Source of the DNA: Calditrichota bacterium
GTDB taxonomy: Bacteria; Electryoneota; RPQS01
Length of the DNA: 64,000 nucleotides
Assembly: GCA_020637445.1 (NCBI GenBank)
Contig: JACJVZ010000003.1
Location: 210,150 to 274,149, forward strand
Direction of reading: 5' to 3'
A model generated the notes under the pieces. It did not search any database. It was given only the letters and a program-made list of their open reading frames with translations, and was not told the origin of the DNA. Within the stretch, counting starts at the first letter, position 1; each line of letters opens with the position of its first letter. Of this stretch, positions 7,727 to 42,820 are shown piece after piece. The position numbers and the translations under genes were made by a program.

Positions 7727-7777
7727 CGTTAAACCTCAGTTGCTAAGTTGAACATAAAAAAGCGGCGGTAAGAACAA

Positions 7778-9772: not shown

Positions 9773-10008
9773 GGAAACTAAAGATATAACAATTGGTTAG
9801 CTGTGCTCGAAGGCAGTTCTTGTAAACTATTAATATACCATAGTCTCATGGCCTCTTCAAGTTCCTCTTGGAAGATTGAGCAATTAAGTGGTGGTTACGG
9901 TGCCCAGCCGAGAATTGTGTTTGCCGGACCTCGCTGGCTCTTGAGAGTTGTTTTCTTTTAGTTTATATTTACGTTTTAGGAAAAAAGTCAGAGTTTCGGG
10001 AGTTGACC

Positions 10009-14687: not shown

Positions 14688-14877
14688 ACAATGTACGCAA
14701 AGTCGGCTTTTCAAGCAGATTTTGCGGGTGAATGCTGATGCAAATCATTGAATATAGTGTTCTTTGAAATTCGACAAACTTAATCAAGGTTTTTTGATAA
14801 TTGCTCTGATTCTCTTGCACTTGCGCGAACCAGAAGGTAATTTGTAGGTGACACTAACAGTAAAAGGGGATTATGTC

Positions 14878-17800
14878 ATGAGAGCAAGGATTTTGCTGTT
14901 GAGCCTTGCGGCACTGATGATGATCGGAGAGCGGGGAGTGCTCGCTGATTCAGCACAAGTATCTGAAGTCCGTGGCCAAAGATTGCGGACGGAACTGCAA
15001 AAGACGAACGATTCGGCAAAACAGAGAGCGATCAGAAAAGAGATTTCGCAGCGTGCGCAGACTCGGGAGCGGAGAGACTCGCGCGAACGGTTGGATCAGG
15101 GAGGAGAAACATGCTCTTTGCCGACGGACTTGACAGGAATGCCGATTCCGATTGTCGTGTCCGGAACCACCATCGACTTCGCGGACGACTACAATTGTGC
15201 AGGATTCGGTCCCGCGCCTCCGCCCTGCTGGACAGGCTACTACGATCAGCTGACTTCGTGTTCCGGGCCGGACGTGGTCTACAGGTTTACACCGCCGGCA
15301 GACGGGGATTACCGTTTTTCGTTGTGCAATTCGGATTACGACACGGGAATCCTGATCTTTAACGATAACTGTCCGCCGAATTTTCCGACGGACTTCGTCT
15401 GCGGAAACGACGACTATTGCAATGTTCAGACTGAGATCGTATCGCTTTCTCTGACCTCCTCGCAACCGATATTGGTTATTATCGACGGCTGGAATGGTGA
15501 TGCGGGAAACTACGAGTTGGTGATTGATTTTGCGGAGCCGCCGCCGCCCAACGACGATTGTTTCGGTGCACAGTTCATCGAGGCGCCGTCTTTGGTGTCA
15601 GGATCGACGGCCAATGCAACGTATGACGATGCGCCGTTCGTCTGCGGAGGGTCGGTCATCGACGGTCCGGGAGTTTGGTATACGACTCTGGGAACTGGAA
15701 ATACGATGACCGTGAATACGTGCTTGCTGGACGGCTATGACACTCAGATCGCCGTTTACCAAGGAGGTTGTACGGGTTTGACGTGTGTTGACGGCAATGA
15801 TCAATTCTGCCTGAATCAGAGTCAAGTGACGTGGTGCAGTCAAGCGGGAGAGCAGTATTTCATTCTCGTGCACGGTTATCAGGGACAGGCCGGAGATTTT
15901 GTGTTGGAACTCACGGACGACGGCATCCCGTGCGGAGGAACGACGCCTGTACTATCCATCCTTGAAGTTTACGAGAACTTGCCGGACTTGGTAGGTCAAC
16001 AGGTGACCATCCGGGGCTTTGGTTCCGGCCCGAATCAGGGGATTATCACGGAAACTGAAGGTGATTGGCTGCGCAACACGGAGCTTGAGCCGTATTCGGC
16101 GCTCAAAGTAGTCGGACTTGATCCTTGGAATATTTACATTCCTGAGTTGATGTGGGGGCAGTACATCGAAGTGCAAGGTATCATTGGCGCGATTCCGATC
16201 TCGCCGGACGTGCCGCCGGGATATGAGGCCACGATTGAAGTCAACGCGCCTGCGGTCGTGGTCCCGAGCACGCCGCATGTGCCGGTAACTCAGGGAAATT
16301 GGCGGCCAGCCAATTGGACTCCAGACACGACGAATTGTGATACGTGCAATTTCGGGATGTTCATCTCGGGCGGAATCGACAGTGCAAACAACCGGGACGA
16401 CTACTGGGATGATTTGGTTGATTTCTACTGTTACAAAACCGGCGCCGGGTATTGTCCGCAGAATATCAACATCTACTATTTCAAAGGCGACACGCTGGAC
16501 GGTAGAATACCTCCTGCGCGAGTGGACTCTTGCACACAGGCAAAGATTCAGGCCAGAATCAATGCGATTGCCAGCAAGGTCAAGGCTTGCAAAGATGCTG
16601 GCAAAACACCCAAGGTTGAGATTGTCGTGACGAATCACGGAAAACATCCTCCCAACGGTGGAATCAATATTCTGGGCCGCGACGGGGCCGGCAGTTCAAA
16701 CGCGATATCGCCGCATGATTTCACATCCATGATCCAGACTTTGTGCGATTCTGGAGCTGCAAATATCGAGATTGAGTTAGGCGAGTGCTTCAGCGGACAG
16801 ATGGTCAATCATCTTCGCGACAGTTTGGACACTAAAGGCGCAAATGTCACGGCAGCTTCGGCGGCGCCGGATTCACTTTCGAGTTGGAGCAAAGGCAAGA
16901 AGGGCGGCTGGAACCGTTGGCTGAATCCGTTGGTTTGCGCGAGATACTCGGGAGAAAGCCTTCCCGAAGCGATTCGTAGAGCGAATCAAAGCTACGACTC
17001 TTCTCTTGTGCAGCTTGATTCGTTGTTCCGGGCATGGGCAGCTTATCTCGATTCACTTGGTACACACGGAGACTCGGTGAAGGCCGCCAAGTACCGCCGG
17101 TGGGCCAGCGACGCCATCAACGGCAAGGGCGGAGAAACCGTTTGGTTCAGCAGAACGTTCAAAGAATCGTGCAACGGAGACACGATATCGGTTTCGCCGG
17201 GCGGCAGACTTGAATTCACGTATTCCGGTCCGAACTCGAGCTGCGGCAACAGCGAGATTATTTGCAAAAACACGGCCGGCCATTGGATCAATTACCGCCA
17301 TTGGAATTGGAACGTACCGGGCTCCGCGGGTTACCACACTGGCAACAATGTCCGCACGTTGGATGCCGGTGCGGGACACACAGGACTCTACGTCATTCAC
17401 AGTTTGAGTGATTCATTCAGGGTTTCTATCAAATCCATCAATCCACCGCTTCCTCCAAGTCTTTTGACCTCTGCTTCGAATCCTGAAGACTATGCGGGCT
17501 TCGGTGTGGGCTGGACATCGGGAAATTCGGATGAATTCGGGGCAATCAATACGGCCACACTGACACTCCCGGACGTGGACGACGACGGATTTGATCTGTC
17601 GACGGCTCCGAAACTGCTCGGCCCGGGCGGAGTGGGACAATTGTTCGCGGACTTTGACGTGTTGGCGGAGAACTATTGGTGGACGGACATGCGGGTTTAT
17701 ATGCGCGTGCTCGGAGGAACGGCCGGTGTGACGGTGACAGCGGACTGTCCCGATTGCGAATTCTCCAATGTTTCGTACGATCTCGCGGGCGGAGACGAGA

Positions 17801-28279: not shown

Positions 28280-28886
28280 TTTTGAAGGGATCGACGGATC
28301 GGGGAAATCAACTCAGATTGCGCGCACGGTCGCGTGGTTGAAAGAGCTTGATTTTGACGTGCTGGTGACACGGGAACCGGGGGGAACCACAGCGGGCGAA
28401 GCGGTACGGGAGTTGCTGCTTGATCCGAAGAGCCATTTGACGGGCAAAGCCGAGTATTTGCTTTATTCTGCTTCACGGGCACAATTGGTTGAAGAAATCC
28501 TGTTGCCGCACCTGAGAAAACACCGCGGCGTGGCCTTGGTCGACCGTTATGCGGATTCTTCGACGGTATATCAAGGCTCCGGCCGGGAGTTGGGACTCGA
28601 TGAAATCGAAGCGGTCAACATGTTCGTGACCGGGAACTTAGCTCCCGATTTGACGATTTACTTAGATGTGGATTATGAAACTTCAATTGCCCGGCGCGCT
28701 GCCAATGGCGGGACGCCGGATAGATTGGAACAGAATCCACGCGAATTTTTTGAAGCGGTCCGGCACGGATATTTGGAATTGTGCCGACGCCATTCCGAGC
28801 GCATAAGAAAGATCGACGCGCGCGGGAACGAAGACGATGTATTTGCGCAGGTGAAGGCAGCGATTGCCGCTCGCCTGCCGGGTTAA
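28269..28886 (+). CDS. tmk: Thymidylate kinase
   Basis: MFISFEGIDGSGKSTQ P-loop and REPGGT motif; overlaps lgt by 11 nt. Confidence 0.9.
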   Translation: MFISFEGIDGSGKSTQIARTVAWLKELDFDVLVTREPGGTTAGEAVRELLLDPKSHLTGKAEYLLYSASRAQLVEEILLPHLRKHRGVALVDRYADSSTVYQGSGRELGLDEIEAVNMFVTGNLAPDLTIYLDVDYETSIARRAANGGTPDRLEQNPREFFEAVRHGYLELCRRHSERIRKIDARGNEDDVFAQVKAAIAARLPG

Positions 28887-28907
28887 ACCACGGGAATAGG
28901 GTGTGCT

Positions 28908-30593: not shown

Positions 30594-30648
30594 CAACCTA
30601 CAGTTGCCGCACTTTCAGCCAGCACATTAGACTCGGAGACACGTCATC

Positions 30649-31005
30649 ATGATCGTGGCCTACTTAATCCTCGGACTTGCCGCGGGAGTTCTCAGCGGGC
30701 TTGTGGGAATCGGCGGAGGAATTTTAATTGTGCCCGCGTTGGTTTTCATTTTTGGCCTGACGCAGCAACAGGCGCAGGGCACGACGCTGGCACTGATGGT
30801 TCCTCCAATCGGTATTTTGGCGGCGTGGACATACTATAAACAGGGATTCGTCGATCTTAAGATCGCGGGATTAATATGCGCGGGATTCGTGTTGGGCGGC
30901 CTGCTCGGCGCGAGATTCGCAGTCGGCATGACCAGCGCGACGCTGCAGAAAGTCTTTGCGGTTTTTCTCATCATCGTCGGCGTCAAGATGCTGTTTGGCA
31001 AGTAG
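30649..31005 (+). CDS. TSUP/TauE-SafE-like small membrane protein (DUF81 half-unit)
   Basis: 118 aa, four predicted TM helices, GIGGGIL motif. Confidence 0.55.
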   Translation: MIVAYLILGLAAGVLSGLVGIGGGILIVPALVFIFGLTQQQAQGTTLALMVPPIGILAAWTYYKQGFVDLKIAGLICAGFVLGGLLGARFAVGMTSATLQKVFAVFLIIVGVKMLFGK

Positions 31006-31063
31006 TCCGTTCCGTTTCGCAAGTCTCTCCTTTTAGCTTCTATTCACATCTTCGCTTTTCCTC

Positions 31064-31927
31064 ATGCAAACTCTCGACTTGAAACTTTTGGGTCGCGGCA
31101 AGGTCCGTGACATTTACGAATACGATGATCGTCATTTGGTGTTCGTGACTTCTAATCGCGTGTCCGCCTTCGACGTGGTCCTCCCTACTCCGATTCCGAA
31201 CAAAGGATCGACCTTGAATTTGCTGACGCGTTTTTGGATGGGCAAGTTCGCGCCGTTGTGCGGGAACCACATCGCCGCCGGAGATTACGCTGGTTTTATA
31301 AAGGAGTTCGCGGCGAGTTTGCCCGCGACGGATGCCGGTCAAGTGGAAGTCGTAAAACGCGCGGAGATGCTGCAGGTTGAGTGTGTGGTGCGCGGATTCA
31401 TCACAGGGTCAGGTTGGAAGGACTACAGAAAGACGGGCGCAGTGTGCGGGCACAAACTTCCCGACGGATTAGAACACTGCGCACAATTTCCGGAGCCGTT
31501 GTTTACACCCGCGACGAAGGCGGCATCGGGCCACGACGAAAATATCGACTTCAATCAGATGTGCAGCATCGTGGGCAAAGAGATGGGAACAAAGCTCCGC
31601 GATTTGTCGCTGGAAATTTACTCGAAGGGACGGGACTACGCTCGCGAACGGGGGATTTTGATAGCGGACACAAAATTCGAATTCGGGATGATTGACGGCG
31701 AGCTGTGTTTGTGCGACGAAGTGCTGACGCCGGACAGTTCGCGCTTTTGGCCTGCCGACGAATACGAACCCGGACGCGATCAACGCAGCTTCGACAAGCA
31801 GATTGTTCGCAACTATCTTGAGACGCTCGGTTGGGACAAGTCACCTCCGGGACCGGAACTTCCGCAGGAAATCGTGCAAAAGACCGCGGCAGCCTACAAA
31901 GAAATCACGGACAAGCTGATGGCATAG
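31064..31927 (+). CDS. purC: Phosphoribosylaminoimidazole-succinocarboxamide synthase (SAICAR synthetase)
   Basis: GKVRDIYEYDD...HLVFVTSNRVSAFD and ILIADTKFEFG motifs. Confidence 0.9.
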   Translation: MQTLDLKLLGRGKVRDIYEYDDRHLVFVTSNRVSAFDVVLPTPIPNKGSTLNLLTRFWMGKFAPLCGNHIAAGDYAGFIKEFAASLPATDAGQVEVVKRAEMLQVECVVRGFITGSGWKDYRKTGAVCGHKLPDGLEHCAQFPEPLFTPATKAASGHDENIDFNQMCSIVGKEMGTKLRDLSLEIYSKGRDYARERGILIADTKFEFGMIDGELCLCDEVLTPDSSRFWPADEYEPGRDQRSFDKQIVRNYLETLGWDKSPPGPELPQEIVQKTAAAYKEITDKLMA

Positions 31928-31946
31928 CGCTGAGCGAAAATTTAGA

Positions 31947-31980
31947 CAAAAAAACCCGCGGATATCGCGGGTTTTTTGTT
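31947..31980. terminator. Bidirectional intrinsic terminator between purC and the convergent methyltransferase gene
   Basis: A7, stem acccgcg / cgcgggt with loop gatat, then T6. Confidence 0.8.
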
Positions 31981-31997
31981 TTGGAACTTATAGCAAA

Positions 31998-32678
31998 CTA
32001 CGGCTTGACACACTTCACGGCAAGCAACTCGATCTCGTCATTGCGGGGCGGGAAGTCCGGAAAACGCGCAAGCAGATCCTCTTCGTTGACGCGCGTGACT
32101 GAAGTAAACCCGGCTTTCTCGAGTGCCCATTTCAGCAATTCAAAATCGAACAGGTTTTTGTGCTCACCGCGCTGGTGAAACATTCTATTGAGAACAAACC
32201 GTTCCGGCGCACCCTCCGGCAGGGATAACGGATCACGCCACATGACGTATTCGTGGAGTTTTTTGCCTCCCGTCTCGACGTAGTCCCGGCACAACTTCTC
32301 CATGTCCGGCGTCGACACCCAAAACTCTCCGCCCGGTTTCAACACGCGGAAAATTTCCGACAAGACGGGAAAGACCTCGTCTTCCACGTCGAGATGTTCG
32401 ACGACGTGCTGGCTTACAACGGACTCGAACGACTCGGACGTAAACGGGAAGGGTCGAATTGCCAAGTCGATGTTGACGTCCGCACCGGACAAATCGACAT
32501 TCACCCAACCGGGCAATTTTCTGGTCCCGCAGCCGAGATGCAGGCGCGAATGAGCAGGAACGCGTTGCTTCCGCGGACCAAAGAGTTTTGGCCGCAGTTT
32601 GAACAGCTCAAACTGAAGAATGCGCCGTGTCCTGAACGAAAACAAGTAGCGGGCAATAGCCCGAAGAGGTCGAATCAT
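31998..32678 (-). CDS. Class I SAM-dependent methyltransferase
   Basis: LHLGCGTRKLPGWVNVD motif I and VLKPGGEFWVSTPD motif. Confidence 0.75.
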   Translation of the reverse strand: MIRPLRAIARYLFSFRTRRILQFELFKLRPKLFGPRKQRVPAHSRLHLGCGTRKLPGWVNVDLSGADVNIDLAIRPFPFTSESFESVVSQHVVEHLDVEDEVFPVLSEIFRVLKPGGEFWVSTPDMEKLCRDYVETGGKKLHEYVMWRDPLSLPEGAPERFVLNRMFHQRGEHKNLFDFELLKWALEKAGFTSVTRVNEEDLLARFPDFPPRNDEIELLAVKCVKP

Positions 32679-32731
32679 CTGCGCACCGGAGACTTGCTAA
32701 TATCGCAAGATACGGAATCGCAAGTCGATAC

Positions 32732-34606
32732 TCAAGCGGCGGCTGCGCGGCAGTGCTGGTTGATAACACGCAGGAGCCGTTCACCGAAGGCTCGCGACTT
32801 GCGTTCGCCGATACCGGGGATTTGCACGAATTGAGCGAGCGAACGAGGTTTGTGACGCGCCAGATCGCGCAGGACAGAGTCGTGCAGCACGACATACGCG
32901 GGCACGTTTTGCTCGATTGCAATGTTCATGCGTTCGGACCGCAAGAGCGCGAACAGCTCTTTGTCCACGTCGTTCCAGTCGACTTCCGCGCGTGCAGAGG
33001 AGCCCATCATCGGCAGCTTGGGTCCGGCTTTGGGATCAACGGATAAGTTAGGCGTCACGCTGCCGCGAATAACCTCGTGTCCTGCTTCCGTGACCGACAA
33101 CGTGTTGAACTCGGGATCGGGATGCAGGAAATGCTGCTCGACCAATTGCCGCACAAAACTATTGATAACCGGAATTGTGTAGGATGACAATAGACCGTAG
33201 GTCGAGAGTTTGTCGTGACTATACAGCAATACGGTTTTGTCGGATGACCCCTTTAGGACAAGCGAGACGTGAGACTGCCCGAAGCGTTCTTTTAGCCGCA
33301 GCACACAACAGAGAATCATTTGCGACATTTGGAGAGCGTCCGCGATCTTGGGAGCCGCGGACAGAACGGCGACCTTGCTTTCGCAGACGTCGCATGCCCC
33401 GCATTTCGCTTGCTCGTAATCTTGATCGAAGTAGCGAACCAGCAGCCTGTGCCGGCAGGACTTGGCATGTGCGTAGTCGAGCATTTGCTCAAGTTTGTCC
33501 GACGCGATCTTGCGCTCGCTTTCGGGGAGTTCGGTCAGGAATCTCTTTTGCTGAACGAGATCACCGACGGAATAAAGCAGCACGCAATCGGCGACCAGTC
33601 CGTCGCGGCCGGCGCGTCCGGATTCCTGCTGATAGTTTTCGAGCGATTTCGGCAATGCGGAGTGAATCACGAAGCGGACATTCGACTTATCTATTCCCAT
33701 GCCGAAGGCGACTGTGGCAACGATAATGTCGCATTCGTCACGCAGAAACGCCTCCTGGGTCACGCGGCGCTGTTCGTTTTCCATTCCCGCATGGTAAGCA
33801 CGTGCTTTGAAGCCCGCTCGCACGAGTTTTTCGGCAAGTTTTTCCGTGGCCGACCGCGAGATGCAATAGATGATACCGGACTCGCCTTTGTGCGCATTTA
33901 GGACAGACAAGACCTGAGTGAGCAGGTCGCCGCGCTGCACGGCGGTGTACACAAGATTAGGTCTATCGAAACTGCCAATAAGGACTTCGGGCTTATGGAG
34001 TTTCAGTTGAGTCGAAATGTCTTCTCGGACACGCCGCGTGGCAGTAGCGGTTAGAGCAATCGTCGGGACGTCCGGAAAGCGCTGCTTTAAGACAGAAAGT
34101 TGACGGTACTCGGGCCGGAAGTCGTGTCCCCATTGGCTGATGCAATGCGCTTCATCCACGGCGAAGAGCGAAATCTCCAGCGATTCGAGGAATTTCAACG
34201 TGCCGTCGGCGGCGATACGCTCGGGCGACATATAGAGAATTTTGATTTGTCCGTAGCGGACTTGCCGCATGGCTGTGCGATTCTCTTCAGAAGTGGCCAT
34301 GCTTGACAGGCATACGGCGGGGATACCCTGAGCTTTGCAGGCGTCCACCTGGTCTTTCATCAAGGCAAGGAGCGGTGAGATGACCACGGCGGTGCCGGGC
34401 AAAGCGAGCGCCGGAAGCTGGTAGCAAAGTGACTTGCCGCCGCCTGTGGGAAGAACAAGTACGACATCTTTGCGGCCTGTCAGGGAAGTGATGGCCTCGT
34501 GCTGATACGGTCTAAATTGCTCAAAGCCCCAGTACTTCTTGAGAAGTGTTTCATGAAGTCCCACAGGTTGCCTCAGAGTTCGATGAACAGATGTGCATTT
34601 GAACAA
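32732..34606 (-). CDS. recQ: ATP-dependent DNA helicase RecQ
   Basis: FRPYQHEAI, Walker [19 protein letters not shown] box ([18 protein letters not shown]), C-terminal RQC/HRDC region. Confidence 0.9.
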
Positions 34607-34933
34607 ATGTAATATCTTCGAGTATCAGAGTCAATCACATTTTCGAATTTTTAATATTTTGATATTTAATAGTTTGTGGCAATAGTCTTGTAAGCCCGCG
34701 AGTCTTTAGGCTTTCGGGTACACCTCTTTGTTTGTGATCCAAAGGGATCGTGCTGCAGTATCTACAGATTATTTTCGCATTCCTAATAAGAGGCAACGAG
34801 AGCGTGTGTGGAAACCGTGGATAAGAAAATGACTTATTGCAGTTTCAATCGTTGAATTGAATCGATAGAAATCTTGACCAAATGCGTTTTGGAGGCTATC
34901 TTATTATCCTATAACTTTGTGAAAGGCTCAAGT

Positions 34934-37900
34934 ATGGCTGCTTTGACTCGGTTTGACTGCCTTTCTTATTGCTCCAAAATTGGAGCGATTGGATCTATTT
35001 TCATTATTGTTTTGATGCTTGGTGTCTTGCCATCCCTTGCATTTGGTGCAGACGGCCAGCAATCCGAGCAGCTTTCACCTTTGCATGAGGACTATGTTCC
35101 TCCCTCCCCCGCCGAGGACGTGCGCATAGAAATAATCGGCGATGCGCGGACGTTCGCCGTCAACAATCCCTTCAGTCGTGATTTCTTACGCAGATCGGGG
35201 TTGATGGCAAAAGGAAGCACGTGCGGTCAAGGCAACAACTGCGCACTGCGCCCGAGTGAAGATGTCGTGTTGTCCGTGTTTATTCCGACCAGTAGAAACT
35301 GGTCGTTTTCGCTCTGCGGCTCGTCGTTTGACACGTACATGGCAATCGGCACGACTCCTTGTTCCGCCAATTTGGGATTCAACGATGATTTTTGCGGCCG
35401 GCAGTCCCAGTCAGAGTGTATCTATCTGGACGTCGGCGTAGTCTATGTGACCATTGAGTCGGGATCCGGCGGATGCGGCACATACAAATTGATAGTCGAT
35501 ACGTGTTCGGCGGGCCGCTGCTGCTACATGGATTCAAATAACGAGCCGGCATGCACAAACTCGGGATATACCGAGTGTGCCGCAGTAAGCGGCGAATGGG
35601 ATGCGTCGACGAGGTGCGAAACGGATCCTTGTCCCTTGGGCCGTTGCTGCTACGAGATCGACGGAGTGCCGAATTGCATGGACGGGCTGTTGGAAAAAGA
35701 GTGTTTGTTCAACCTTCAAGGCACATGGACGGAAGGCGTCACGTGCAGCCAGGAGATATGTCCTGAGATGGTGGACACCCTTACTTGCGGTCCGCTGGAC
35801 TTGGTGCTGGCCATTGATGTTTCGGGTTCAATGATAGAGGAACTTTCTACTGTTCAATCGGAAGCCCAAGAAATTTTGACTCGTGCTGTTGAAGTGTCCC
35901 GCGAAGATCTGCGAGTAGGTCTGGTAACTTTTCGCGAATTCGTCAGCGTACCTTCATCCCTGACGAACGATATCGGATCTGTGTCTTCCGCCATTGGCCA
36001 GCTTTTCGCTTATTGGGGCGGCGATCCCGGAGAAGCGTCTGACGAAGCCCTGCGCGAGATTATCACGATGGACGGTTCTTGCACACATGGTCCGGGATTC
36101 GACACGCCTTTCAGAGCGGGCGCGGACAAAGTGATCATCATCATGACGGACGAGATCAATAGCGGGTGCTCGGGAATATTCAGGCCGCAGTATGCTCATC
36201 AACGCGCATTGGACGCTCAAGCCGCGGATATCAGGATTTCCTCTATCTATATTCGAGGAGAATTGAACGAACGGAATATATCCGATGTATTGCGAGACTA
36301 CGCCGAGACGACGGGCGGCCTCTATGTGGTATCGCGCGCAGGAGAAAACATCTCTGAAAATATCGAGTACATTTTGGATCGCTGCGGTCGGTCGACGCTT
36401 GCTTTGGCCGGTGATTCGATACCCAATGTGCCGTGCGTAAACTCCACCGACTTTCCAAACCAAGTAGAGTTGAAGATCAGAGTAAGGAATGTAACAAACG
36501 AACCGATCGGTGGAGGCACGGTTCATTTGTTTTCTGACGCAGGTCCCGGAGGAACAGGTCTTGTAATCTCTCCAAATCCCGTGTCACTGGGGTACGTACT
36601 TCCTCACGACACCGTCGAAGTAGGATTCACGGTAGTCCTCGCGGCCAATCCTTCCGGGGGATGCATCAATTTTCGCGCTGTACTGACTCAAGACACTATT
36701 GAACTCGGAACGGATTCGATATGCATAAACGTTCCAAATGGGGGACTTGAATTTGGGAATCACTGGTTTCCCGCGGTACACTGCGACGGATACGGGGTTG
36801 CACCCACCAGTTTCACGGCCACGTTTGATGTGGTCAACAACTCGCTTTGCGAAGTGGATGACGCCCAAGTATCATTGGAAATTTTGAGCGGAAGCGGCGG
36901 TCAAGGCACGGTAGTTTCAGCAAATCCCGTGCAGTTGGGACACGTTCCTTACGGCCGGACCGTTACCGTACCATTTGACGTACAGATTCAACCGTTGCCT
37001 CCGGGAGGGTGTATCTACTTTCGAGCCATGCTGCACTTCGGTGATGAACCATACCAAGTGCAAGAGTCGTGTTTGAATATCCCTTCCTATGAGCTTACGC
37101 TGCTGGCAATTTCTGACTATGCCGTCAGCTGTGTAGATGGCGAAATAGTGCCTTTGTCTATGAATTTGGTTGTCGCGGCACGGAACTCATCCTCATGTCC
37201 TGCACACGGAGTACAGATATGGATGGGACCCGGCAATGGGTCCGCAGGTACCGGAACGGTCGTGACGCAGAATCCGGTTGTGATCGGCACCATGAATCTC
37301 CTCTCCACACGAGGTGCGAACTTTGGTGTTGAAATCAATCCGAATTCCACAGGCGGAATCATTTCTTTCCCCGTGAAATTGATTGTGGGTACAGACACGG
37401 TTGCCACGAGCAATGCAAACATCATTGTTCCACCTTGCGGCTGCGAGTCGACAACTGCCGTTGTGATGTCATCCAAGAGCGAGAGCTTGGGATGCACTTG
37501 TGTGCAAATGTGTGATACCGCACCAATTCCCATCACAATCTGCGGGGACGGCTACGAAACGCCAAGCCCGCCAGTTATCAGTTTTCAAGACTGTTTCGGT
37601 GACTGCGTGCAGGGCGAAGCTGCGGTTCCGGAATCACTGTGGATACACGAGAATGATTGCTGGACAAACTTCATCCATGTGGTCGTGACCGGATGCACCC
37701 AAGTATGCGCAGAGTTCCCCAGACATCTCGCCGCGGCGGATTTCAAGTTGATACGAGACTTCGACCGGATTTATGTTCGCTGGAACATGGTCTCAGAGAA
37801 GAACTTGAAACTGCTCGAAGTAGAACGCAACGGCCAAATGGTTGCTGTTGTCGACGCGACGAACGAAGTCGGTTCCGAGTACGAGTGGACGGACAGCAAC

Positions 37901-38275
37901 GTTCGTCCGGGAGCATCGTATGAGTACCGGTTATTTGCCACGGACCTTGAAGGGATGCGCGGCGAACTTGGGTTTGCAGTTGCGTCTCCGCTAGACGAAC
38001 CCTCTATCGTCAGTGGTTTCGCTTTGCTTCCAAACTATCCCAATCCGTTCAACGGCTCGACAACCATAGAATTCGATTTACCGGAAGCCTCTGACGTGCA
38101 GCTTGTGGTGTACGACATTTCCGGGCGTAAGGTGACAGAACTTGCGCATGGCTCATTTGCCTCGGGCCGTCATGCTGTAGTGTTTGGCGGAGAGGAATTG
38201 GCCTCCGGGCTCTACCTCTGCCATATGACAGCAGGGAAGTTCTCGACACGACAAAAGATGCTTTTGCTAAAGTAG
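34934..38275 (+). CDS. Giant secreted protein: PPC-like domain, Cys-rich CCY repeats, vWA domain, T9SS C-terminal sorting domain
   Basis: Start at MAALTRF... ahead of hydrophobic signal; vWA (LDLVLAIDVSGSM); two GRCCY Cys-rich repeats; CTD LPNYPNPFNGSTTIEF...GLYLCHM...KMLLLK. Confidence 0.8.
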   Translation: MAALTRFDCLSYCSKIGAIGSIFIIVLMLGVLPSLAFGADGQQSEQLSPLHEDYVPPSPAEDVRIEIIGDARTFAVNNPFSRDFLRRSGLMAKGSTCGQGNNCALRPSEDVVLSVFIPTSRNWSFSLCGSSFDTYMAIGTTPCSANLGFNDDFCGRQSQSECIYLDVGVVYVTIESGSGGCGTYKLIVDTCSAGRCCYMDSNNEPACTNSGYTECAAVSGEWDASTRCETDPCPLGRCCYEIDGVPNCMDGLLEKECLFNLQGTWTEGVTCSQEICPEMVDTLTCGPLDLVLAIDVSGSMIEELSTVQSEAQEILTRAVEVSREDLRVGLVTFREFVSVPSSLTNDIGSVSSAIGQLFAYWGGDPGEASDEALREIITMDGSCTHGPGFDTPFRAGADKVIIIMTDEINSGCSGIFRPQYAHQRALDAQAADIRISSIYIRGELNERNISDVLRDYAETTGGLYVVSRAGENISENIEYILDRCGRSTLALAGDSIPNVPCVNSTDFPNQVELKIRVRNVTNEPIGGGTVHLFSDAGPGGTGLVISPNPVSLGYVLPHDTVEVGFTVVLAANPSGGCINFRAVLTQDTIELGTDSICINVPNGGLEFGNHWFPAVHCDGYGVAPTSFTATFDVVNNSLCEVDDAQVSLEILSGSGGQGTVVSANPVQLGHVPYGRTVTVPFDVQIQPLPPGGCIYFRAMLHFGDEPYQVQESCLNIPSYELTLLAISDYAVSCVDGEIVPLSMNLVVAARNSSSCPAHGVQIWMGPGNGSAGTGTVVTQNPVVIGTMNLLSTRGANFGVEINPNSTGGIISFPVKLIVGTDTVATSNANIIVPPCGCESTTAVVMSSKSESLGCTCVQMCDTAPIPITICGDGYETPSPPVISFQDCFGDCVQGEAAVPESLWIHENDCWTNFIHVVVTGCTQVCAEFPRHLAAADFKLIRDFDRIYVRWNMVSEKNLKLLEVERNGQMVAVVDATNEVGSEYEWTDSNVRPGASYEYRLFATDLEGMRGELGFAVASPLDEPSIVSGFALLPNYPNPFNGSTTIEFDLPEASDVQLVVYDISGRKVTELAHGSFASGRHAVVFGGEELASGLYLCHMTAGKFSTRQKMLLLK

Positions 38276-38298
38276 TCCGCCCATGCCAACAAGAACAA

Positions 38299-38325
38299 AG
38301 CCCTCGGAATTTCCGAGGGCTTTTG
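38299..38325. terminator. Bidirectional intrinsic terminator between the vWA/T9SS gene and the convergent metallophosphoesterase gene
   Basis: Stem agccctcgg / ccgagggct with loop aattt, flanked by A-rich and T-rich runs. Confidence 0.75.
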
Positions 38326-38347
38326 CTGTAAGGCGAGTCGGCAAGTA

Positions 38348-39145
38348 CTATGCGAGACTTGCAGCCGCCAATCTCGGATCAATCGTGGGAATCGGAAAAC
38401 TCAGAACCGGTTTAACCGTCGTAATGAAGTCCTCTACAAAAGTGGGCTTTTCGTAACCGGCTGGCTTGGCAATATCGAAACGGTTTTTGTCCCAGTTGAT
38501 CAGGACTCCTTCCTGCGCGGTGTCCATGAACGACCCGGTGTTGATGTAGGTTCGGCCGTTTTCCGTGCAGACTTCCTGATGATGCACGTGGCCGCAAACG
38601 ACGAAGCGGAAGTCCTGCTTCTCGGCATATTCGAGTGCGCGGGAGCGAACTCGCTTAATCACGTTCAGCCACGACTTGCTGGTGTACTTGACGTATTCGC
38701 TGAAGCGGTTGCTTCTCACGCAGCGCTGAATGTAGTAATAGGCGCGCGAGGCGATTTCCGTGGTGATGGGATACTTGCGAATGAAGTTGTCGAACTGGTG
38801 TCCGTGGAGAATCCCGATTTTTCCGTGCGGAGTTTCGATGTGTAATTCCAACAGATTCTCATTGAACAAAGGAAGAATCTCCGAGTCATGATTCCCCTTG
38901 ATCCAAATGACCTCTTTGCGACGCTTGTAGAGATCCCAGATAAGAGTCAAGACCTCACGGTGAGGTCTTCTTAGTCTGTGCAGGTTCGGATTGTCGTAGG
39001 TATCGCCGTTGATGACCAAGGTGTCGAATTCGGAATTTTCGAGAGTTTCGATGATACCTTCGGCATTGCAGTTGGGTGATCCCAAATGCAAGTCCGAGAT
39101 AACGAGGACTGAACCGTTTTCTCTTAGATTACGAAGACTTGTCAT
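38348..39145 (-). CDS. Metallophosphoesterase (calcineurin-like)
   Basis: Motifs VISDLHLG, INGDTYD, GNHD, GHQFD, CGHVHH. Confidence 0.8.
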   Translation of the reverse strand: MTSLRNLRENGSVLVISDLHLGSPNCNAEGIIETLENSEFDTLVINGDTYDNPNLHRLRRPHREVLTLIWDLYKRRKEVIWIKGNHDSEILPLFNENLLELHIETPHGKIGILHGHQFDNFIRKYPITTEIASRAYYYIQRCVRSNRFSEYVKYTSKSWLNVIKRVRSRALEYAEKQDFRFVVCGHVHHQEVCTENGRTYINTGSFMDTAQEGVLINWDKNRFDIAKPAGYEKPTFVEDFITTVKPVLSFPIPTIDPRLAAASLA

Positions 39146-39330
39146 AAACCTCCGCGATAGGTGCTTGAATATGAAGAGGGTCTTTACTTATAATGCCATG
39201 CAAATGAAATTAGTGAAGATACGTTAGGTTGGCATAGGGCAAACGGTTAGTTTTATATGATTGTGTGGACAACTTGAGGGGAGAAGTGGTTTGACCGTTT
39301 GCCTTTCCGGAAGACCGAGGGGAAATCGGA

Positions 39331-39379
39331 TAACAGAAACGCGCCTGTCCCCCCTCGGACAGGCGCGTTGTTCTTTATG
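39331..39379. terminator. Bidirectional intrinsic terminator candidate between hsp20 and the metallophosphoesterase gene
   Basis: 11-bp perfect stem cgcgcctgtcc/ggacaggcgcg (39340-39350 / 39357-39367), loop cccctc, T-rich on both transcript orientations. Confidence 0.55.
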
Positions 39380-39422
39380 TCAACCTCTCCCCCGCTGGGA
39401 TAGAGGATTGTTGTCTTGGGGC

Positions 39423-39442
39423 GGGCGGATTGCCATCCGCCC
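39423..39442 (-). other. GC-rich hairpin downstream of hsp20
   Basis: gggcggat-tgcc-atccgccc, perfect 8-bp stem with 4-nt loop. Confidence 0.5.
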
Positions 39443-39471
39443 CTACACAGATTCGCCAAGAGCACAGAGTG

Positions 39472-39499
39472 CGGGGCACCCGCAGCGGGTGCCGCCGCG
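39472..39499. repeat. Palindromic repeat family 1, copy 2 (downstream of hsp20)
   Basis: cggggcacccgcagcgggtgccgccgcg; 26/28 identical to copy 1, and the two differences (t->c, a->g) are base-pairing partners in the stem. Confidence 0.7.
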
Positions 39500-39507
39500 T
39501 TAGTGAG

Positions 39508-39957
39508 TTACTTGGAAACCTTGATCGTGCGGCTCTTGGCCTCTTCGGCCTTGGGGAGCGTGACCTTCAGGACGCCGTCGCTGTAGTTGGCGGAAACGCG
39601 GTCGCCTGTGATGTTGTTCGGCAGGCTGAAACTGCGTTCGAACTTGCCGTAGCTGCGCTCGACGCGGACGAAGTTGTCCTTTTCTTCCTTGATTTCGCGC
39701 TTTTTTTCACCCGAAATGGTAAGGACATTGTTGTTCAGGGTAATGTTGATGTCCTCTTCGCGCATGCCGGGAAGTTCGGCATGAATTTCATAGCTGTCGG
39801 GATTTTCGGCGATATCGACATCGGGGGCCCAGCTTCGCATGATGCCGCCCTTGTTCCAGCCCATCAGTTCATTCAGGGCTTCATCCAGATTGCCTACGGG
39901 GAAACCCGGTTGCATGTGACGGGGAACGTACTTCGTGATCTTCATGGTGATCTCCAT
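39508..39957 (-). CDS. Hsp20/alpha-crystallin family small heat-shock protein
   Basis: Alpha-crystallin domain (APDVDIAENPDSYEIHAELPGMREEDINIT...GVLKVTLPK); alternative start at second ATG (39945), which has a GGAG-like SD. Confidence 0.9.
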   Translation of the reverse strand: MEITMKITKYVPRHMQPGFPVGNLDEALNELMGWNKGGIMRSWAPDVDIAENPDSYEIHAELPGMREEDINITLNNNVLTISGEKKREIKEEKDNFVRVERSYGKFERSFSLPNNITGDRVSANYSDGVLKVTLPKAEEAKSRTIKVSK

Positions 39958-40191
39958 ATCTTTGGTTTGTTGTAGAAAGGGTAAAGAGTTCTGCAGTCAT
40001 TGTGACACTGACCCTTAAGGCAACGGAAATGCCAATTGTGTAAAAAATTGTTTTACAAACAGATAGCGAGAATTTGAAATTTTCTGCATCTGCAACGGTG
40101 GCAGAGTGGGCTGTTAATCCGACAGGTATTATGTCGCATTGGCAGGCAGATGACAGGAGAGATTCAGAAGCCCCCCTTTATCCCCCATTTC

Positions 40192-40219
40192 TCGCGGTGG
40201 CATCTGCTGCGGGTGCCCC
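40192..40219. repeat. Palindromic repeat family 1, copy 3 (inverted, degenerate)
   Basis: cgcggtggcatctgctgcgggtgcccca is 24/28 identical to the reverse complement of copy 1; the stem is kept on the plus-strand transcript only through G-U pairs. Confidence 0.55.
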
Positions 40220-40390
40220 ATACCGAGTCATTTATCGGATTGCGGCGGGAAACCGCTCGCGAAATTCCCACTTGGTGAACAAGACGGAAATGGGGGGAGA
40301 CCGGAGGTTGCATATTCGCCTTTGAGTGGGTATCTTTTTAGATTCCAAGCTCCTTGCGAGTTTCAACCGCTAACTTTGCCCCTGCCACCA

Positions 40391-41155
40391 ATGACCTCAA
40401 AGAAGCTCTGCCCTCACTGCCTCAAAGTCATCCCACTAAAGCACCGATTCAAGTCCAAATGCCCGCATTGTTTTCGTCCGCTCCGCCGCAAGAGTGAAGG
40501 CGAACGAAGCACCCTTGCCCTCTGGTTGGAAGACCGCGGAAAATACTGGTGGTTTTTCATACTGATTATCATCTGCGTGATCGGCGCCATGATCGGACAA
40601 ATGGCGGGACGGCATTCCTCGTTTCTGAATTTTATCAGCGAACACCCGATCATGTTCATGTTGACGCTGTATTATTTGGGAGCGTTCGCGTCGCTGATTT
40701 CGCGCATGTATATTCCGCTGATGTTGGGAGCGCCGCGCATTTTGAGGCGGGAACGGTCTCAGATTACACAGTACAAAGTATTCACGGCCGTCGGCATGCT
40801 GCTGGGTTTGGGTTTGGCGCTGTTTGTCGTTGGAGCCAACCAGTTTTTCGTTATGTTTCCGGCGAGCGTGTTTTTGTTTACGCTTCCGATAGCGATCTTG
40901 TGGGCCTATCTTGCTTTGGTATTGCAGGAGCAGGACTATGAAGACGAGCGCGTCTGGTCATATTTGACGGAGCTTGGCGGAGGTGACAGACTGGACCACC
41001 GTCACAACGGCTATCTTGTGTTGATCATGGTTCCGTTGGCGGCTCTGTTGTTTTATTGGATGATGCAGAACCAGTGGATATATTATTGGTTCTCCGATTC
41101 GACACTTGTTTCAATGTTTAAGGAATTGTACATGCGCGCAACGGGCCGCATGTAA
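40391..41155 (+). CDS. Hypothetical membrane protein with N-terminal zinc-ribbon (CPHC...CPHC)
   Basis: Start at internal Met MTSKKLCPHC; several TM helices. Confidence 0.55.
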   Translation: MTSKKLCPHCLKVIPLKHRFKSKCPHCFRPLRRKSEGERSTLALWLEDRGKYWWFFILIIICVIGAMIGQMAGRHSSFLNFISEHPIMFMLTLYYLGAFASLISRMYIPLMLGAPRILRRERSQITQYKVFTAVGMLLGLGLALFVVGANQFFVMFPASVFLFTLPIAILWAYLALVLQEQDYEDERVWSYLTELGGGDRLDHRHNGYLVLIMVPLAALLFYWMMQNQWIYYWFSDSTLVSMFKELYMRATGRM

Positions 41156-41164
41156 TCCTGTTTC

Positions 41165-42253
41165 ATGTCACAATTCAAGTCGCGAGGCAAAAAGAAGAAG
41201 AGAAGAACCGCGCACAAAGCCGGCCAGCTTCCGGGCAGCGTTGTCTACGGGGGCGAAAACGGCCGGGAGTCGGTGCTTCGCGGAGTTCGGTACGACGCCG
41301 TGACTTTTGAGGAAAAGCCGCTTGCCAACGCAAGTGAGGTCAAGGAGTTTCTCGGCCAGCCCGGAGTCAAATGGGTGAATCTGGACGGGCTTTCTGACAC
41401 GAAGTTGCTCGAAGAGATTGGCAGAGTCTTGGAGTTGCATTCGCTGGTGCTTGAAGATATCGCAAACACACAGCAACGCACAAAAATTGAGGAAGACAAC
41501 AACCAATTTGTGTTGTTTCTAAGAGACTTTGACAGAAACTCAGAGACACACGGTTTGGAGGATTCGCAAGTCGCGATTGCGCTCGGCGAAGATTTTGTAT
41601 TCACATTTTGCGAGCGAGAACCGACCGAATTCACATTAATGCTCGGCAGGCTTGCCTCGAATCAAGGAATAGCCCGCAGCAACGGCGCGGACTATTTGGT
41701 GTATCGGATGCTCGACTTGCTGGTGGATCAGTATTTTGTGATGCTCGACGACGAGAGCAACAAACTGGACCAGCTCCAAGCCAAGATCATGGATGATCCG
41801 ACTGACCGGGGAATCCTAAGCGAACTTTTTGACACACGTCAAGAACTTCAAGCGCTCAGATACGGGATATTGCCGCTGCGGGACGTGCTGGCGGCACTCG
41901 AGCGGCGGGACACAGCGCTCATTCAGCCGGGAACAAAAGCGTATTTACGCGACGTATATGATCACGCGCTCAACGTCTCGGAGTCCATTGATTCGCTGCG
42001 GGACTTGCAGGCGACGGCTTTGGAGGTCTATCTTTCCCGGCTTTCGCTTCGACAGAACGACGTTGTGCGGGTACTCACTGTGATTTCGACGGTGTTCCTG
42101 CCACTGACCTTTTTTGTCGGGGTATGGGGTATGAACTTCATCAACATGCCCGAGCTGCATTGGCACAACGGCTATTTCCTGGCGCTGGGTTTCATGGCGC
42201 TGTTGTTGGTGGGCATGCTCCTGTACTTCAAAAGGAAGGGTTGGTTTTCGTAG
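41165..42253 (+). CDS. corA: Magnesium/cobalt transporter CorA
   Basis: C-terminal two TM helices with GVWGMNF (GMN) signature. Confidence 0.9.
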   Translation: MSQFKSRGKKKKRRTAHKAGQLPGSVVYGGENGRESVLRGVRYDAVTFEEKPLANASEVKEFLGQPGVKWVNLDGLSDTKLLEEIGRVLELHSLVLEDIANTQQRTKIEEDNNQFVLFLRDFDRNSETHGLEDSQVAIALGEDFVFTFCEREPTEFTLMLGRLASNQGIARSNGADYLVYRMLDLLVDQYFVMLDDESNKLDQLQAKIMDDPTDRGILSELFDTRQELQALRYGILPLRDVLAALERRDTALIQPGTKAYLRDVYDHALNVSESIDSLRDLQATALEVYLSRLSLRQNDVVRVLTVISTVFLPLTFFVGVWGMNFINMPELHWHNGYFLALGFMALLLVGMLLYFKRKGWFS

Positions 42254-42314
42254 CAGAGACAACGGCAATTCTGGTTGGTGATTACAGTCGCTGTCAACTC
42301 GATCGGAGGTTTCC

Positions 42315-42764
42315 ATGACATATCATTTCCCAAAACCGTTTGTCCACGACCATCCGCCAATTCAGAACGTAAATGACATCATTCAGGATCGGCTGACATT
42401 CGGGCAGAAAGCGGCAGATCGCATCGCTCAAATGGTCGGGTCTTGGCGGTTCATCATCATTCAATCTTGCCTGCTGGCAGCTTGGGCTGCCGTGAATGTA
42501 GTCGCGTGGACGCATCATTGGGATCCCTATCCATTTATTCTGATGAATCTTTTTCTTTCCCTGCAAGCTGCATACACGGCGCCGATGATCATGATGAGTC
42601 AGAACAGGCAAAACGCGCGGGATCGGGTGGAAGCTCACGTGGACTACTTGACAAATCAAAAAGCTGAAGTCGAGATCCGGGCGGTTCTGGATCATTTAGC
42701 CGCACAGGATCAAGCGCTTGCAAAGTTGATCGACCAAGTATCGACGATTCAAAAGGCAAATTGA
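42315..42764 (+). CDS. DUF1003-family membrane protein
   Basis: GSWRF...WDPYPFILMNLFLSLQAAYTAPMIMMSQNRQ motif block. Confidence 0.65.
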   Translation: MTYHFPKPFVHDHPPIQNVNDIIQDRLTFGQKAADRIAQMVGSWRFIIIQSCLLAAWAAVNVVAWTHHWDPYPFILMNLFLSLQAAYTAPMIMMSQNRQNARDRVEAHVDYLTNQKAEVEIRAVLDHLAAQDQALAKLIDQVSTIQKAN

Positions 42765-42820
42765 CGATATTGATTTAGCGGTACCATAAAGAAAAACACA
42801 TCACAAAAAAATATACTCGC

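What the first reader, a model, noticed from the sequence alone, without database searches (positions are those of the whole stretch)
34934..38275. Giant vWA/Cys-rich T9SS protein sharing a domain with the peptidase candidate
The 1113-aa protein combines a PPC-like domain (FSLCGSSFDTYMAIG...GTYKLIVD) closely resembling that of the 14878-18144 protein, two GRCCY Cys-rich modules, a vWA domain with the DxSxS MIDAS start (AIDVSGSM), several Ig-like repeats and a T9SS CTD. Domain sharing between two otherwise different secreted proteins 17 kb apart suggests domain shuffling among surface proteins. It is preceded by a 327-nt AT-rich divergent promoter region shared with recQ.
Basis: partly seen in the sequence, partly recalled or inferred. 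Interest (0 to 1): 0.45.

Follow-up and report, generated by a model that had tools for sequence, protein, structure and literature searches.

The report
Secreted vWA surface protein, iRhom-like modules
This is an ordinary multi-domain surface protein of a Calditrichaeota bacterium, probably a sticky, metal-dependent binding protein exported by the type IX secretion system, but its two small cysteine-rich modules belong to a large family of bacterial repeats with no Pfam or NCBIfam model that looks related to the "unprecedented" extracellular domain of animal iRhom proteins.

Summary

The shared domain is a widespread mobile module. The target's copy is 38-43% identical to copies in Chitinophagales, Zixibacteria and other proteins, but 27% and 21% to its neighbour's two copies. 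An ortholog at a syntenic locus has the same architecture. So there was no recent local shuffling. The protein is already in NCBI as "VWA domain-containing protein". It is most likely a non-enzymatic, surface-anchored binding protein.

The unexpected result concerns the GRCCY module:
- It has no Pfam or NCBIfam hit.
- It occurs in at least 2344 protein clusters.
- A profile of 125 modules hits only iRhom1 and iRhom2 in the whole PDB (E 2.4e-6; reversed control E 3.1).

The parts
34607..34933 (.). 327-nt AT-rich spacer between the divergent recQ gene (32732-34606, -) and the target gene
   Evidence: GC ~0.39 against ~0.50-0.59 in the flanks. 7 sigma-70-like matches against 1.0 +/- 0.9 expected. 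No Rfam match. RecQ is confirmed by DEAD, Helicase_C, RQC, HRDC and RecQ_Zn_bind hits.
34934..38275 (+). Whole gene: 1113-aa secreted multi-domain protein
   Evidence: It is 99.9% identical over 1082 aa to the NCBI entry 'MAG: VWA domain-containing protein [Calditrichaeota bacterium]' (P0001).
34934..35047 (+). Probable Sec signal peptide (aa 1-38, ...SLAFG|ADG)
   Evidence: Read from the sequence: a hydrophobic core IGAIGSIFIIVLMLGVLPSLAFG. Homologs have comparable N-termini. No signal-peptide predictor was run.
35201..35503 (+). PPC-like beta jelly-roll domain (aa ~90-190)
35513..35632 (+). GRCCY 6-Cys module 1 (aa 194-233)
   Evidence: AF2: beta-hairpin, short helix and strand, pLDDT above 90.
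35639..35761 (+). GRCCY 6-Cys module 2 (aa 236-276)
35798..36373 (+). vWA domain (aa ~289-480) with DxSxS (D295, S297, S299) and invariant T405-D406
   Evidence: Pfam VWA, VWA_2 and VWA_4 are above their cut-offs. D295, G298, S299, T405, D406, E367 and D370 are invariant in 15 family members.
36395..37441 (+). Three tandem ~115-aa Ig-like (CARDB/NEW3-like) repeats (aa 488-602, 603-717, 718-836)
   Evidence: Pairwise E 5e-10 to 2.5e-13. Some repeat units of homologs hit NPCBM_assoc (best E 7.5e-5), DUF11 and CARDB, all below family thresholds. The target's first repeat gives no hit; repeats 2 and 3 were in the scanned alignment but per-member results were not returned. Copy number in the family varies from 1 to 5.
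37442..37708 (+). Cys-rich segment of unknown fold (aa 837-925)
   Evidence: Conserved cysteines in the family alignment. No Pfam or NCBIfam hit.
37721..37993 (+). Probable Fn3-like beta-sandwich (aa ~930-1020)
   Evidence: Conserved W950, S954, E955, Y983, Y996 and Y998. No family hit. The fold is inferred only.
38036..38263 (+). T9SS type A C-terminal sorting domain (aa 1035-1110)
   Evidence: PF18962 35.2 bits (cut-off 27) and TIGR04183 33 bits (cut-off 23). It sits at the extreme C-terminus.
38297..38323 (.). 12-bp GC-rich hairpin between the convergent stop codons of the target and the metallophosphoesterase gene (38348-39145, -)
   Evidence: Terminator-like site.
15097..15933 (+). Two tandem PPC-like domains of the other subtype in the 14848-18144 protein (aa ~84-232 and 232-362)
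   Evidence: HMM scores are 86 and 73 bits.

Best explanation
The gene encodes a non-enzymatic, multi-domain binding protein that ends up on the cell surface.

Export route (inferred from the signals present): it crosses the inner membrane by Sec using the N-terminal signal peptide. It folds and forms its many disulfides in the periplasm. Its type A C-terminal domain then takes it across the outer membrane through the type IX secretion system. By analogy with characterised type A cargo, the CTD is removed and the protein is attached to the surface.

Layout (inferred): the C-terminal half is three CARDB-like Ig repeats, a Cys-rich segment and an Fn3-like domain. It acts as a stalk. The N-terminal half is a PPC-like jelly roll, two disulfide-locked GRCCY modules and a vWA domain whose MIDAS-type site (DxSxS...TD) would bind a ligand through a divalent cation. 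It acts as the binding head.

Shown here: the ORF, the domain order, family membership of the vWA and CTD domains, the PPC fold (from a confident model), the repeat structure, and conservation of the architecture in orthologs. Inferred: export route, surface anchoring, metal-dependent binding, and the adhesin role. The ligand is unknown.
For: - vWA and CTD are above the curated cut-offs.
- DxSxS, TD and other vWA positions are invariant in 15 homologs.
- No catalytic domain was found by Pfam, NCBIfam or PDB sequence search over the whole protein.
- Ig-like repeat number varies from 1 to 5 among homologs while the head and the CTD stay constant, as expected of a spacer.
- At least six other proteins in the window carry Por_Secre_tail, so T9SS cargo is common in this genome.
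- The gene is monocistronic, between a divergent recQ and a convergent gene with a hairpin.
- T9SS CTD biology (beta-sandwich signal, PorU cleavage, A-LPS anchoring) is taken from PMC4804311 and PMC10202324.
Against: - No T9SS machinery gene was looked for outside the window, and T9SS has been characterised experimentally mainly in Bacteroidota.
- The middle MIDAS threonine is not obvious. The family has a conserved GGxxxPEA(S)DEAL loop instead of the usual GGT, so metal binding is not certain.
- About 270 aa have no fold evidence: the N-terminal linker (aa 39-89), the Cys-rich segment (aa 837-925) and the Fn3-like segment (aa 930-1020). They could hide an activity.
- Type A CTD cargo can also be released into the medium rather than anchored.
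Confidence: 0.65

Rival explanations
1. The two proteins 17 kb apart exchanged the PPC-like domain recently. This is local domain shuffling among surface proteins of this genome.
For: The two domains align significantly. Both proteins are predicted to be secreted. In the window the domain is found only in these two proteins.
Against: - The target copy is 38-43% identical to copies in proteins of other phyla, but 27% and 21% to the neighbour's two copies.
- The neighbour's two copies resemble each other, and resemble the first PPC-like domain of P0005-P0010, more than they resemble the target's copy.
- Both proteins have full-length orthologs with the same architecture elsewhere: P0002-P0004 for the target and P0202-P0204 for the neighbour.
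- The P0003 locus is syntenic.
Confidence: 0.05
2. The protein is a released, soluble accessory that targets insoluble substrates for secreted hydrolases. This is the usual setting of PPC domains. It would not be a surface-anchored adhesin.
For: PPC domains are typical of secreted peptidases and act as substrate-binding modules, as in the ColG, ColH and KP-43 hits. Related PPC-like copies occur in proteins with P-domain, GEVED and PKD modules. T9SS cargo can be released (PMC10202324).
Against: The protein has no catalytic domain, and no hydrolase gene is in an operon with it. The long Ig/Fn3 stalk next to the CTD fits a surface-tethered protein better.
Confidence: 0.2
3. The similarity between the GRCCY module and the iRhom homology domain is convergence between small disulfide-rich motifs, not common ancestry.
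Against: - Only iRhom sequences are hit among 177,635 PDB sequences.
- E improves from 2.4e-3 to 2.4e-6 when the profile is broadened from 34 to 125 diverse modules.
- The reversed-sequence control gives a best E of 3.1.
- The match includes non-Cys positions: G before CC, T/S-T and E before C4, and G-x-aromatic after C4. The spacings C3-x7-C4 and C5-x4-C6 are the same.
Confidence: 0.3

Closest known systems
Bacterial vWA-domain surface proteins and adhesins (Pfam PF00092/PF13519/PF25106), with integrin I-domains and pilus-tip adhesins as functional models
   Same: The vWA fold family is matched above the Pfam cut-offs. The DxSxS and TD MIDAS residues are conserved. The domain sits in an extracellular, multi-domain protein with a stalk.
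   Different: The protein is exported through a T9SS CTD rather than a sortase or an autotransporter. The central MIDAS Thr loop is replaced by a conserved PEA(S)DEAL loop. No MoxR or BatA-type partner genes are nearby.
Pre-peptidase C-terminal (PPC) / collagen-binding domains of ColG, ColH, B. anthracis collagenase, Tk-SP and KP-43 (PF04151)
   Different: Pfam PPC does not hit the target. This subfamily has its own signature (G-x-T-C-G-x-G-N-D-C...SED...W-x-F-S-L-C-G-S-x-F-D-T-Y...N-D-D-x-C-G-x-Q-S) with conserved cysteines. It lies at the N-terminus of a protein that is not a peptidase.
iRhom homology domain (IRHD/IHD) of metazoan iRhom1 and iRhom2 (PDB 8SNL, 9O58, 9Q7Y, 9XY4)
   Different: The IRHD is a ~240-aa domain inserted between TM1 and TM2 of a rhomboid pseudoprotease, with 8 disulfides and extra elements. 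The bacterial module is a free-standing ~42-aa unit, used singly or in arrays of up to ~35 copies. Foldseek does not detect the similarity.
T9SS type A cargo such as P. gingivalis gingipains and F. johnsoniae adhesins (CTD models TIGR04183 / PF18962)
   Same: A C-terminal ~75-aa sorting domain above both curated cut-offs, preceded by Ig/Fn3-like domains.
   Different: The organism is a Calditrichaeota MAG, outside Bacteroidota. Its machinery was not examined, and the cargo head is a combination of vWA, PPC-like domain and GRCCY modules.
CARDB / NPCBM_assoc (NEW3) / DUF11 Ig-like repeats
   Same: ~115-aa beta-rich tandem repeats. Several repeat units of homologs hit these families weakly (best E 7.5e-5).
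   Different: The target's first repeat gives no hit, and per-member results for repeats 2 and 3 were not returned. No structure was predicted for the repeats, so the assignment is provisional.

Membership tests
vWA domain (PF00092 / PF13519 / PF25106) | Score above Pfam's gathering cut-off | tested here: met
   VWA 35.1 bits (cut-off 23.8), VWA_2 29.2 (27) and VWA_4 27.7 (27), over aa 289-445.
vWA domain (PF00092 / PF13519 / PF25106) | Complete MIDAS: DxSxS, a Thr in the next loop, and an Asp after beta-4 | tested here: inconclusive
   D295-x-S297-x-S299 and T405-D406 are present and conserved. The usual GGT Thr is replaced by the loop GGDPGEASDEAL, with E367 and D370 invariant. No vWA structure was modelled.
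PPC, bacterial pre-peptidase C-terminal domain (PF04151) | Score above Pfam's gathering cut-off (25.9 bits) | tested here: not met
   No PPC hit on the target even at E up to 10. Homologous copies in P0016 and P0024 score 19.1 bits, E 0.0025.
PPC, bacterial pre-peptidase C-terminal domain (PF04151) | Beta jelly-roll fold of the collagenase CBD/PPC type | tested here: met
   [not shown]
PPC, bacterial pre-peptidase C-terminal domain (PF04151) | Located C-terminal to a secreted peptidase catalytic domain | tested here: not met
   The domain is near the N-terminus, and no peptidase domain is detectable in the protein.
T9SS type A C-terminal sorting domain (TIGR04183 / PF18962) | Score above the curated cut-offs, at the extreme C-terminus | tested here: met
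   TIGR04183 33 bits (cut-off 23) and PF18962 35.2 bits (cut-off 27), aa 1035-1110 of 1113.
T9SS type A C-terminal sorting domain (TIGR04183 / PF18962) | The genome encodes the T9SS machinery (SprA/Sov, PorK-N, PorU, PorV) | not tested
   Only the 64-kb window was available. It holds at least six further CTD proteins, but no machinery gene was identified.
CARDB / NPCBM_assoc Ig-like repeats | Match to the family model | tested here: inconclusive
   4 of 17 repeat units of the family hit NPCBM_assoc (best E 7.5e-5), 4 hit DUF11 and 3 hit CARDB. The tool reports per-member hits only for the first row, the target's first repeat, which gave none; the hitting members were not identified. The PDB profile search was empty.
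iRhom homology domain | Significant sequence similarity to the IRHD | tested here: met
   The profile of 125 modules hits iRhom1 at E 2.4e-6 and 3.1e-6 and iRhom2 at 1.4e-3 and 1.7e-3, and nothing else in the PDB at E up to 10. The reversed control gives a best E of 3.1.
iRhom homology domain | Structural similarity to the IRHD | tested here: inconclusive
   [not shown]
iRhom homology domain | Same disulfide connectivity; whole-domain architecture (~240 aa, 8 disulfides, between TM1 and TM2 of a rhomboid fold) | not testable with these tools
   Model coordinates cannot be inspected. The target has no rhomboid membrane domain, so at most it shares a sub-module and is not an IRHD.

The most novel reading that the evidence does not exclude
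The GRCCY/GxCC 6-Cys module has two copies in this protein and occurs in at least 2344 protein clusters, in arrays of up to ~35 copies. No Pfam or NCBIfam model hits it. The novel reading is that it is homologous to the two structured halves of the metazoan iRhom homology domain, whose fold was reported as unprecedented (PMC11248996). If so, the IRHD arose by duplication and elaboration of a module that is abundant in bacterial secreted proteins, either inherited from an ancient pool or acquired from bacteria. The bacterial arrays would then offer simple soluble models for the ADAM17-binding domain.
Probability: 0.6. Interest if true: 0.65.

Novelty: new member of a known kind. Interest (0 to 1): 0.42.

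Why it matters
The gene itself adds one more vWA-bearing T9SS cargo protein from a poorly studied phylum, and the public annotation of its start codon needs correcting.

The wider value lies in its small cysteine-rich modules. They define a very large family of bacterial repeats that no Pfam or NCBIfam model hits. They give the first sequence and structure link I could find between bacteria and the iRhom homology domain. That domain is essential for ADAM17-dependent release of TNF and EGFR ligands, and the authors of its cryo-EM structure could find no structural relative.

If the link holds, it gives a testable origin for the domain and easily expressed bacterial homologs for studying its fold.

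Tried and rejected
- Pfam and NCBIfam scans of the isolated PPC-like segment, the module pair, the repeat region and the C-terminal Cys-rich/Fn3-like region gave no usable hits. FOLN and Ornatin on the modules are below their cut-offs and were judged spurious.
- A phmmer search of the whole protein against PDB sequences found nothing. A profile of the Ig-like repeats against the PDB found nothing.
- Foldseek of the two-module model against the PDB found no significant match and no iRhom. The afdb50 library was not available.
- I tried to collect iRhom sequences for a reciprocal profile. The protein database returned only short exon fragments of vertebrate iRhom genes, which are too uniform to build a profile.
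- An Rfam scan of the intergenic region gave no match.
- The peptidase nature of the 14848-18144 protein was tested with Pfam, NCBIfam, phmmer against the PDB and an ortholog profile against the PDB. All were negative except for the C-terminal Fn3.
- An operon or partner hypothesis (MoxR/BatA-type) was rejected. The gene is flanked by a divergent gene and a convergent gene, and the neighbours differ between family members.
- Literature searches for bacterial relatives of the IRHD, for 'GC-type dockerin' and for T9SS in Calditrichaeota found nothing relevant.
Full report
**1. The observation**

The + strand ORF that ends at 38275 starts at TTG 34874 (1133 aa) or ATG 34934 (1113 aa). The full-length orthologs P0002-P0004 align from the ATG-encoded Met, so 34934 is the likely start. 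The N-terminus then reads MAALTRFDCLSYCSK-IGAIGSIFIIVLMLGVLPSLAFG|ADG, which looks like a Sec signal peptide (read by eye; no predictor was run). The same protein is in NCBI as 'MAG: VWA domain-containing protein [Calditrichaeota bacterium]'. There it is 1082 aa long, because its start was called 31 codons downstream, inside the hydrophobic core.

Pfam and NCBIfam place two domains above their curated cut-offs: a vWA domain at aa 289-445 and a T9SS type A sorting domain at aa 1035-1110. Three ~115-aa repeats (aa 488-602, 603-717, 718-836) are 28-33% identical pairwise, with E from 5e-10 to 2.5e-13.

**2. The shared domain**

Target aa 110-189 align with aa 142-227 of the 14848-18144 protein at 31% identity over 86 aa, E 2e-7. 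With SEG hard masking the alignment is unchanged at E 2.5e-7, and none of 1000 shuffles reaches the observed score (z 15.5). The neighbour carries a second tandem copy (aa ~245-357). It is clearly related to the neighbour's first copy (z 10.4) but hardly to the target's copy (z 2.1).

**3. Is it a PPC domain?**

Pfam PF04151 does not hit the target, even at E up to 10. Its homologous copies in P0016 and P0024 reach only 19 bits against a cut-off of 25.9. A profile of 28 copies weakly finds the Vibrio metalloprotease PPC domain 2luw (E 0.053).

So 'PPC-like' is right at the fold level. It is a distinct, Cys-containing subfamily that fails the Pfam membership test.

**4. Domain shuffling?**

The module is widespread and comes in two subtypes. 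The target's subtype recurs in several places:
- four times in a Chitinophagales protein (P0016);
- in Zixibacteria GEVED proteins (P0019);
- at the N-terminus of PKD, HYR and SprB proteins (P0024, P0027-29);
- next to a proprotein-convertase P-domain (P0023).

Local BLASTP identity to the target is 44-50% over the domain for most of these and 32-38% for P0019. In the common alignment these copies are 38-43% identical to the target, against 27% and 21% for the neighbour's two copies.

The neighbour's subtype also occurs in arrays in many unrelated proteins, including one attributed to the diatom Nitzschia. It forms the first of two PPC-like domains in the target's paralog family P0005-P0010. 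In the window, only these two proteins carry the domain.

Both proteins have full-length orthologs with unchanged architecture. The P0003 locus is syntenic with the window: LGT, thymidylate kinase, S41 peptidase and SAICAR synthase upstream, and HSP20, CorA and S9 peptidase downstream. Modular evolution on a long time scale is obvious. A recent exchange between the two genes is not supported.

**5. Family and context**

Fifteen family members share this order: signal peptide, zero or one subtype-B PPC-like domain, a subtype-A PPC-like domain, one or two GRCCY modules, vWA, one to five Ig-like repeats, a Cys-rich segment (replaced by a longer unrelated insert in P0013, P0014 and P0017), an Fn3-like domain, and the CTD.

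In the vWA domain, D295, G298, S299, T405, D406, E367 and D370 are invariant. The usual GGT loop is replaced by GGxxxPEA(S)DEAL, so a complete MIDAS is not proven.

Some repeat units of homologs hit NPCBM_assoc, DUF11 and CARDB weakly; the target's first repeat gives no hit, and the scan did not report which members hit. The segments aa 837-925 and aa 930-1020 have no family hit.

The gene stands alone. recQ is divergent upstream, confirmed by DEAD, Helicase_C, RQC, HRDC and Zn-binding domains. A metallophosphoesterase gene is convergent downstream, with a 12-bp hairpin between the two stop codons.

The 327-nt spacer has GC ~0.39 against ~0.50-0.59 around it. It holds 7 sigma-70-like matches against 1.0 +/- 0.9 expected and no Rfam match. 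recQ is not the neighbour in the syntenic ortholog locus. At least six other proteins in the window end in a Por_Secre_tail domain.

**6. Most likely function**

No catalytic domain is detectable. There is a head of binding-type domains (PPC-like, vWA). The stalk of Ig-like repeats varies in number between homologs. A type A CTD is present.

The best reading is therefore a Sec- and T9SS-exported binding protein, probably surface-anchored and adhesin-like, that binds an unknown ligand through a divalent-cation site. The 12 cysteines of the two modules, and further conserved cysteines elsewhere, fit periplasmic folding before T9SS export. The export route, the anchoring and the binding are inferences from family knowledge (PMC4804311, PMC10202324). 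They were not shown here.

**7. The unexpected part: the GRCCY module**

The ~42-aa unit has the pattern G-[RA]-C-C-x(~8)-C-x7-C-x4-G-x-[WFY]-x(~6)-C-x(3-4)-C. Neither Pfam nor NCBIfam hits it. Proteins made largely of it, such as P0056 with 23 matched stretches in 1143 aa, have no Pfam hit at all.

An exhaustive HMMER search of 1.84 billion representative proteins finds 2344 proteins at E up to 1e-3, 826 at E up to 1e-10 and 113 at E up to 1e-30, with up to 35 matched stretches per protein.

A profile of 34 modules searched against all PDB sequences returned five hits at E up to 10. Four were iRhom1 or iRhom2 (best E 2.4e-3), and the fifth was a phage baseplate protein at E 1.1. I then extracted 1150 modules from the 150 best representatives and aligned 125 diverse ones. 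With this broader profile:
- iRhom1 scores E 2.4e-6 and 3.1e-6 (31 bits, two stretches);
- iRhom2 scores E 1.4e-3 and 1.7e-3;
- these are the only four hits at E up to 10 among 177,635 sequences.

The same alignment with every sequence reversed gives a best E of 3.1, so cysteine composition does not explain the hit.

The aligned iRhom1 stretch [36 protein letters not shown] shares all six Cys. It also shares the C3-x7-C4 and C5-x4-C6 spacings, the T/S and E positions before C4, and G-x-aromatic after C4. The Gly before the CC pair is matched only in the 34-module alignment. A second stretch, [26 protein letters not shown], matches the first two thirds of the module.

The literature fits this picture. 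[quoted passage not shown] Earlier work described the IRHD as two structured regions separated by a disordered stretch (PMC8233286). That matches two module-like hits about 95 residues apart. I found no paper that mentions bacterial relatives.

**8. Verdict**

Its evolutionary inference is not supported.

As a gene, this is a new member of a known kind: a T9SS cargo with a vWA head, already annotated in NCBI. The interest comes from the repeat family that no Pfam or NCBIfam model hits and from its probable link to the iRhom homology domain. That link deserves a proper reciprocal profile and structure comparison.

Noticed in passing
[not shown]
   Followed up: yes
window 34934-35026: The public NCBI protein (1082 aa) starts at a TTG 31 codons downstream of the ATG that the orthologs support. 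This cuts off most of the predicted signal peptide, so the start is likely mis-annotated.
   Followed up: partly
window 14848-18144: The 'peptidase candidate' is annotated as a hypothetical protein (KDB65_08695). Only its two PPC-like domains (aa ~84-362) and a C-terminal Fn3 have relatives outside three orthologs. The central ~650 aa have no Pfam, NCBIfam or PDB match. An NHG ... ExGxCxSG pair of motifs is invariant in four orthologs and recalls the His/Cys dyad of clan CD peptidases. That resemblance is from memory and was not tested. The protein has no T9SS CTD.
   Followed up: partly
protein P0216 (Nitzschia inconspicua, 1012 aa): The neighbour's subtype of PPC-like domain occurs at least five times in a protein attributed to a diatom genome. 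This could be horizontal transfer, a eukaryotic family, or bacterial contamination of the assembly.
   Followed up: no
window 5738-14624 and 51598-54384: There is a cluster of T9SS cargo genes, all with Por_Secre_tail: two paralogous ~663-aa proteins with CarboxypepD_reg (one also BACON_2), a 325-aa protein, and a 1223-aa beta-helix/PMP-repeat protein. Further away lies a 928-aa 5'-nucleotidase with a CTD. The 10003-10980 and 10953-14624 ORFs overlap by 28 nt.
   Followed up: partly
window 38297-38323: A perfect 12-bp GC-rich hairpin (AAAGCCCTCGGA-AAT-TCCGAGGGCTTT) lies between the convergent stop codons of the target and the metallophosphoesterase gene. It is probably a bidirectional terminator. 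The T-run is poor on the strand that was scored.
   Followed up: no
L001 (Logan SRR10064596 contig, 92 kb) compared with window 27452-44845: The ortholog locus is syntenic, but two DUF1569 genes stand where the window has a methyltransferase gene and recQ. It also lacks the metallophosphoesterase gene between the target and HSP20. These are small local rearrangements around a conserved surface-protein gene.
   Followed up: partly
proteins P0016, P0078, P0206, P0207, P0214: PPC-like copies often occur together with Pfam GBD_T9SS_assoc (PF23759, galactose-binding-like) domains. One such protein is named 'GC-type dockerin domain-anchored protein' (Phycisphaerales). This points to a shared toolkit of modules across FCB and PVC bacteria.
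   Followed up: no
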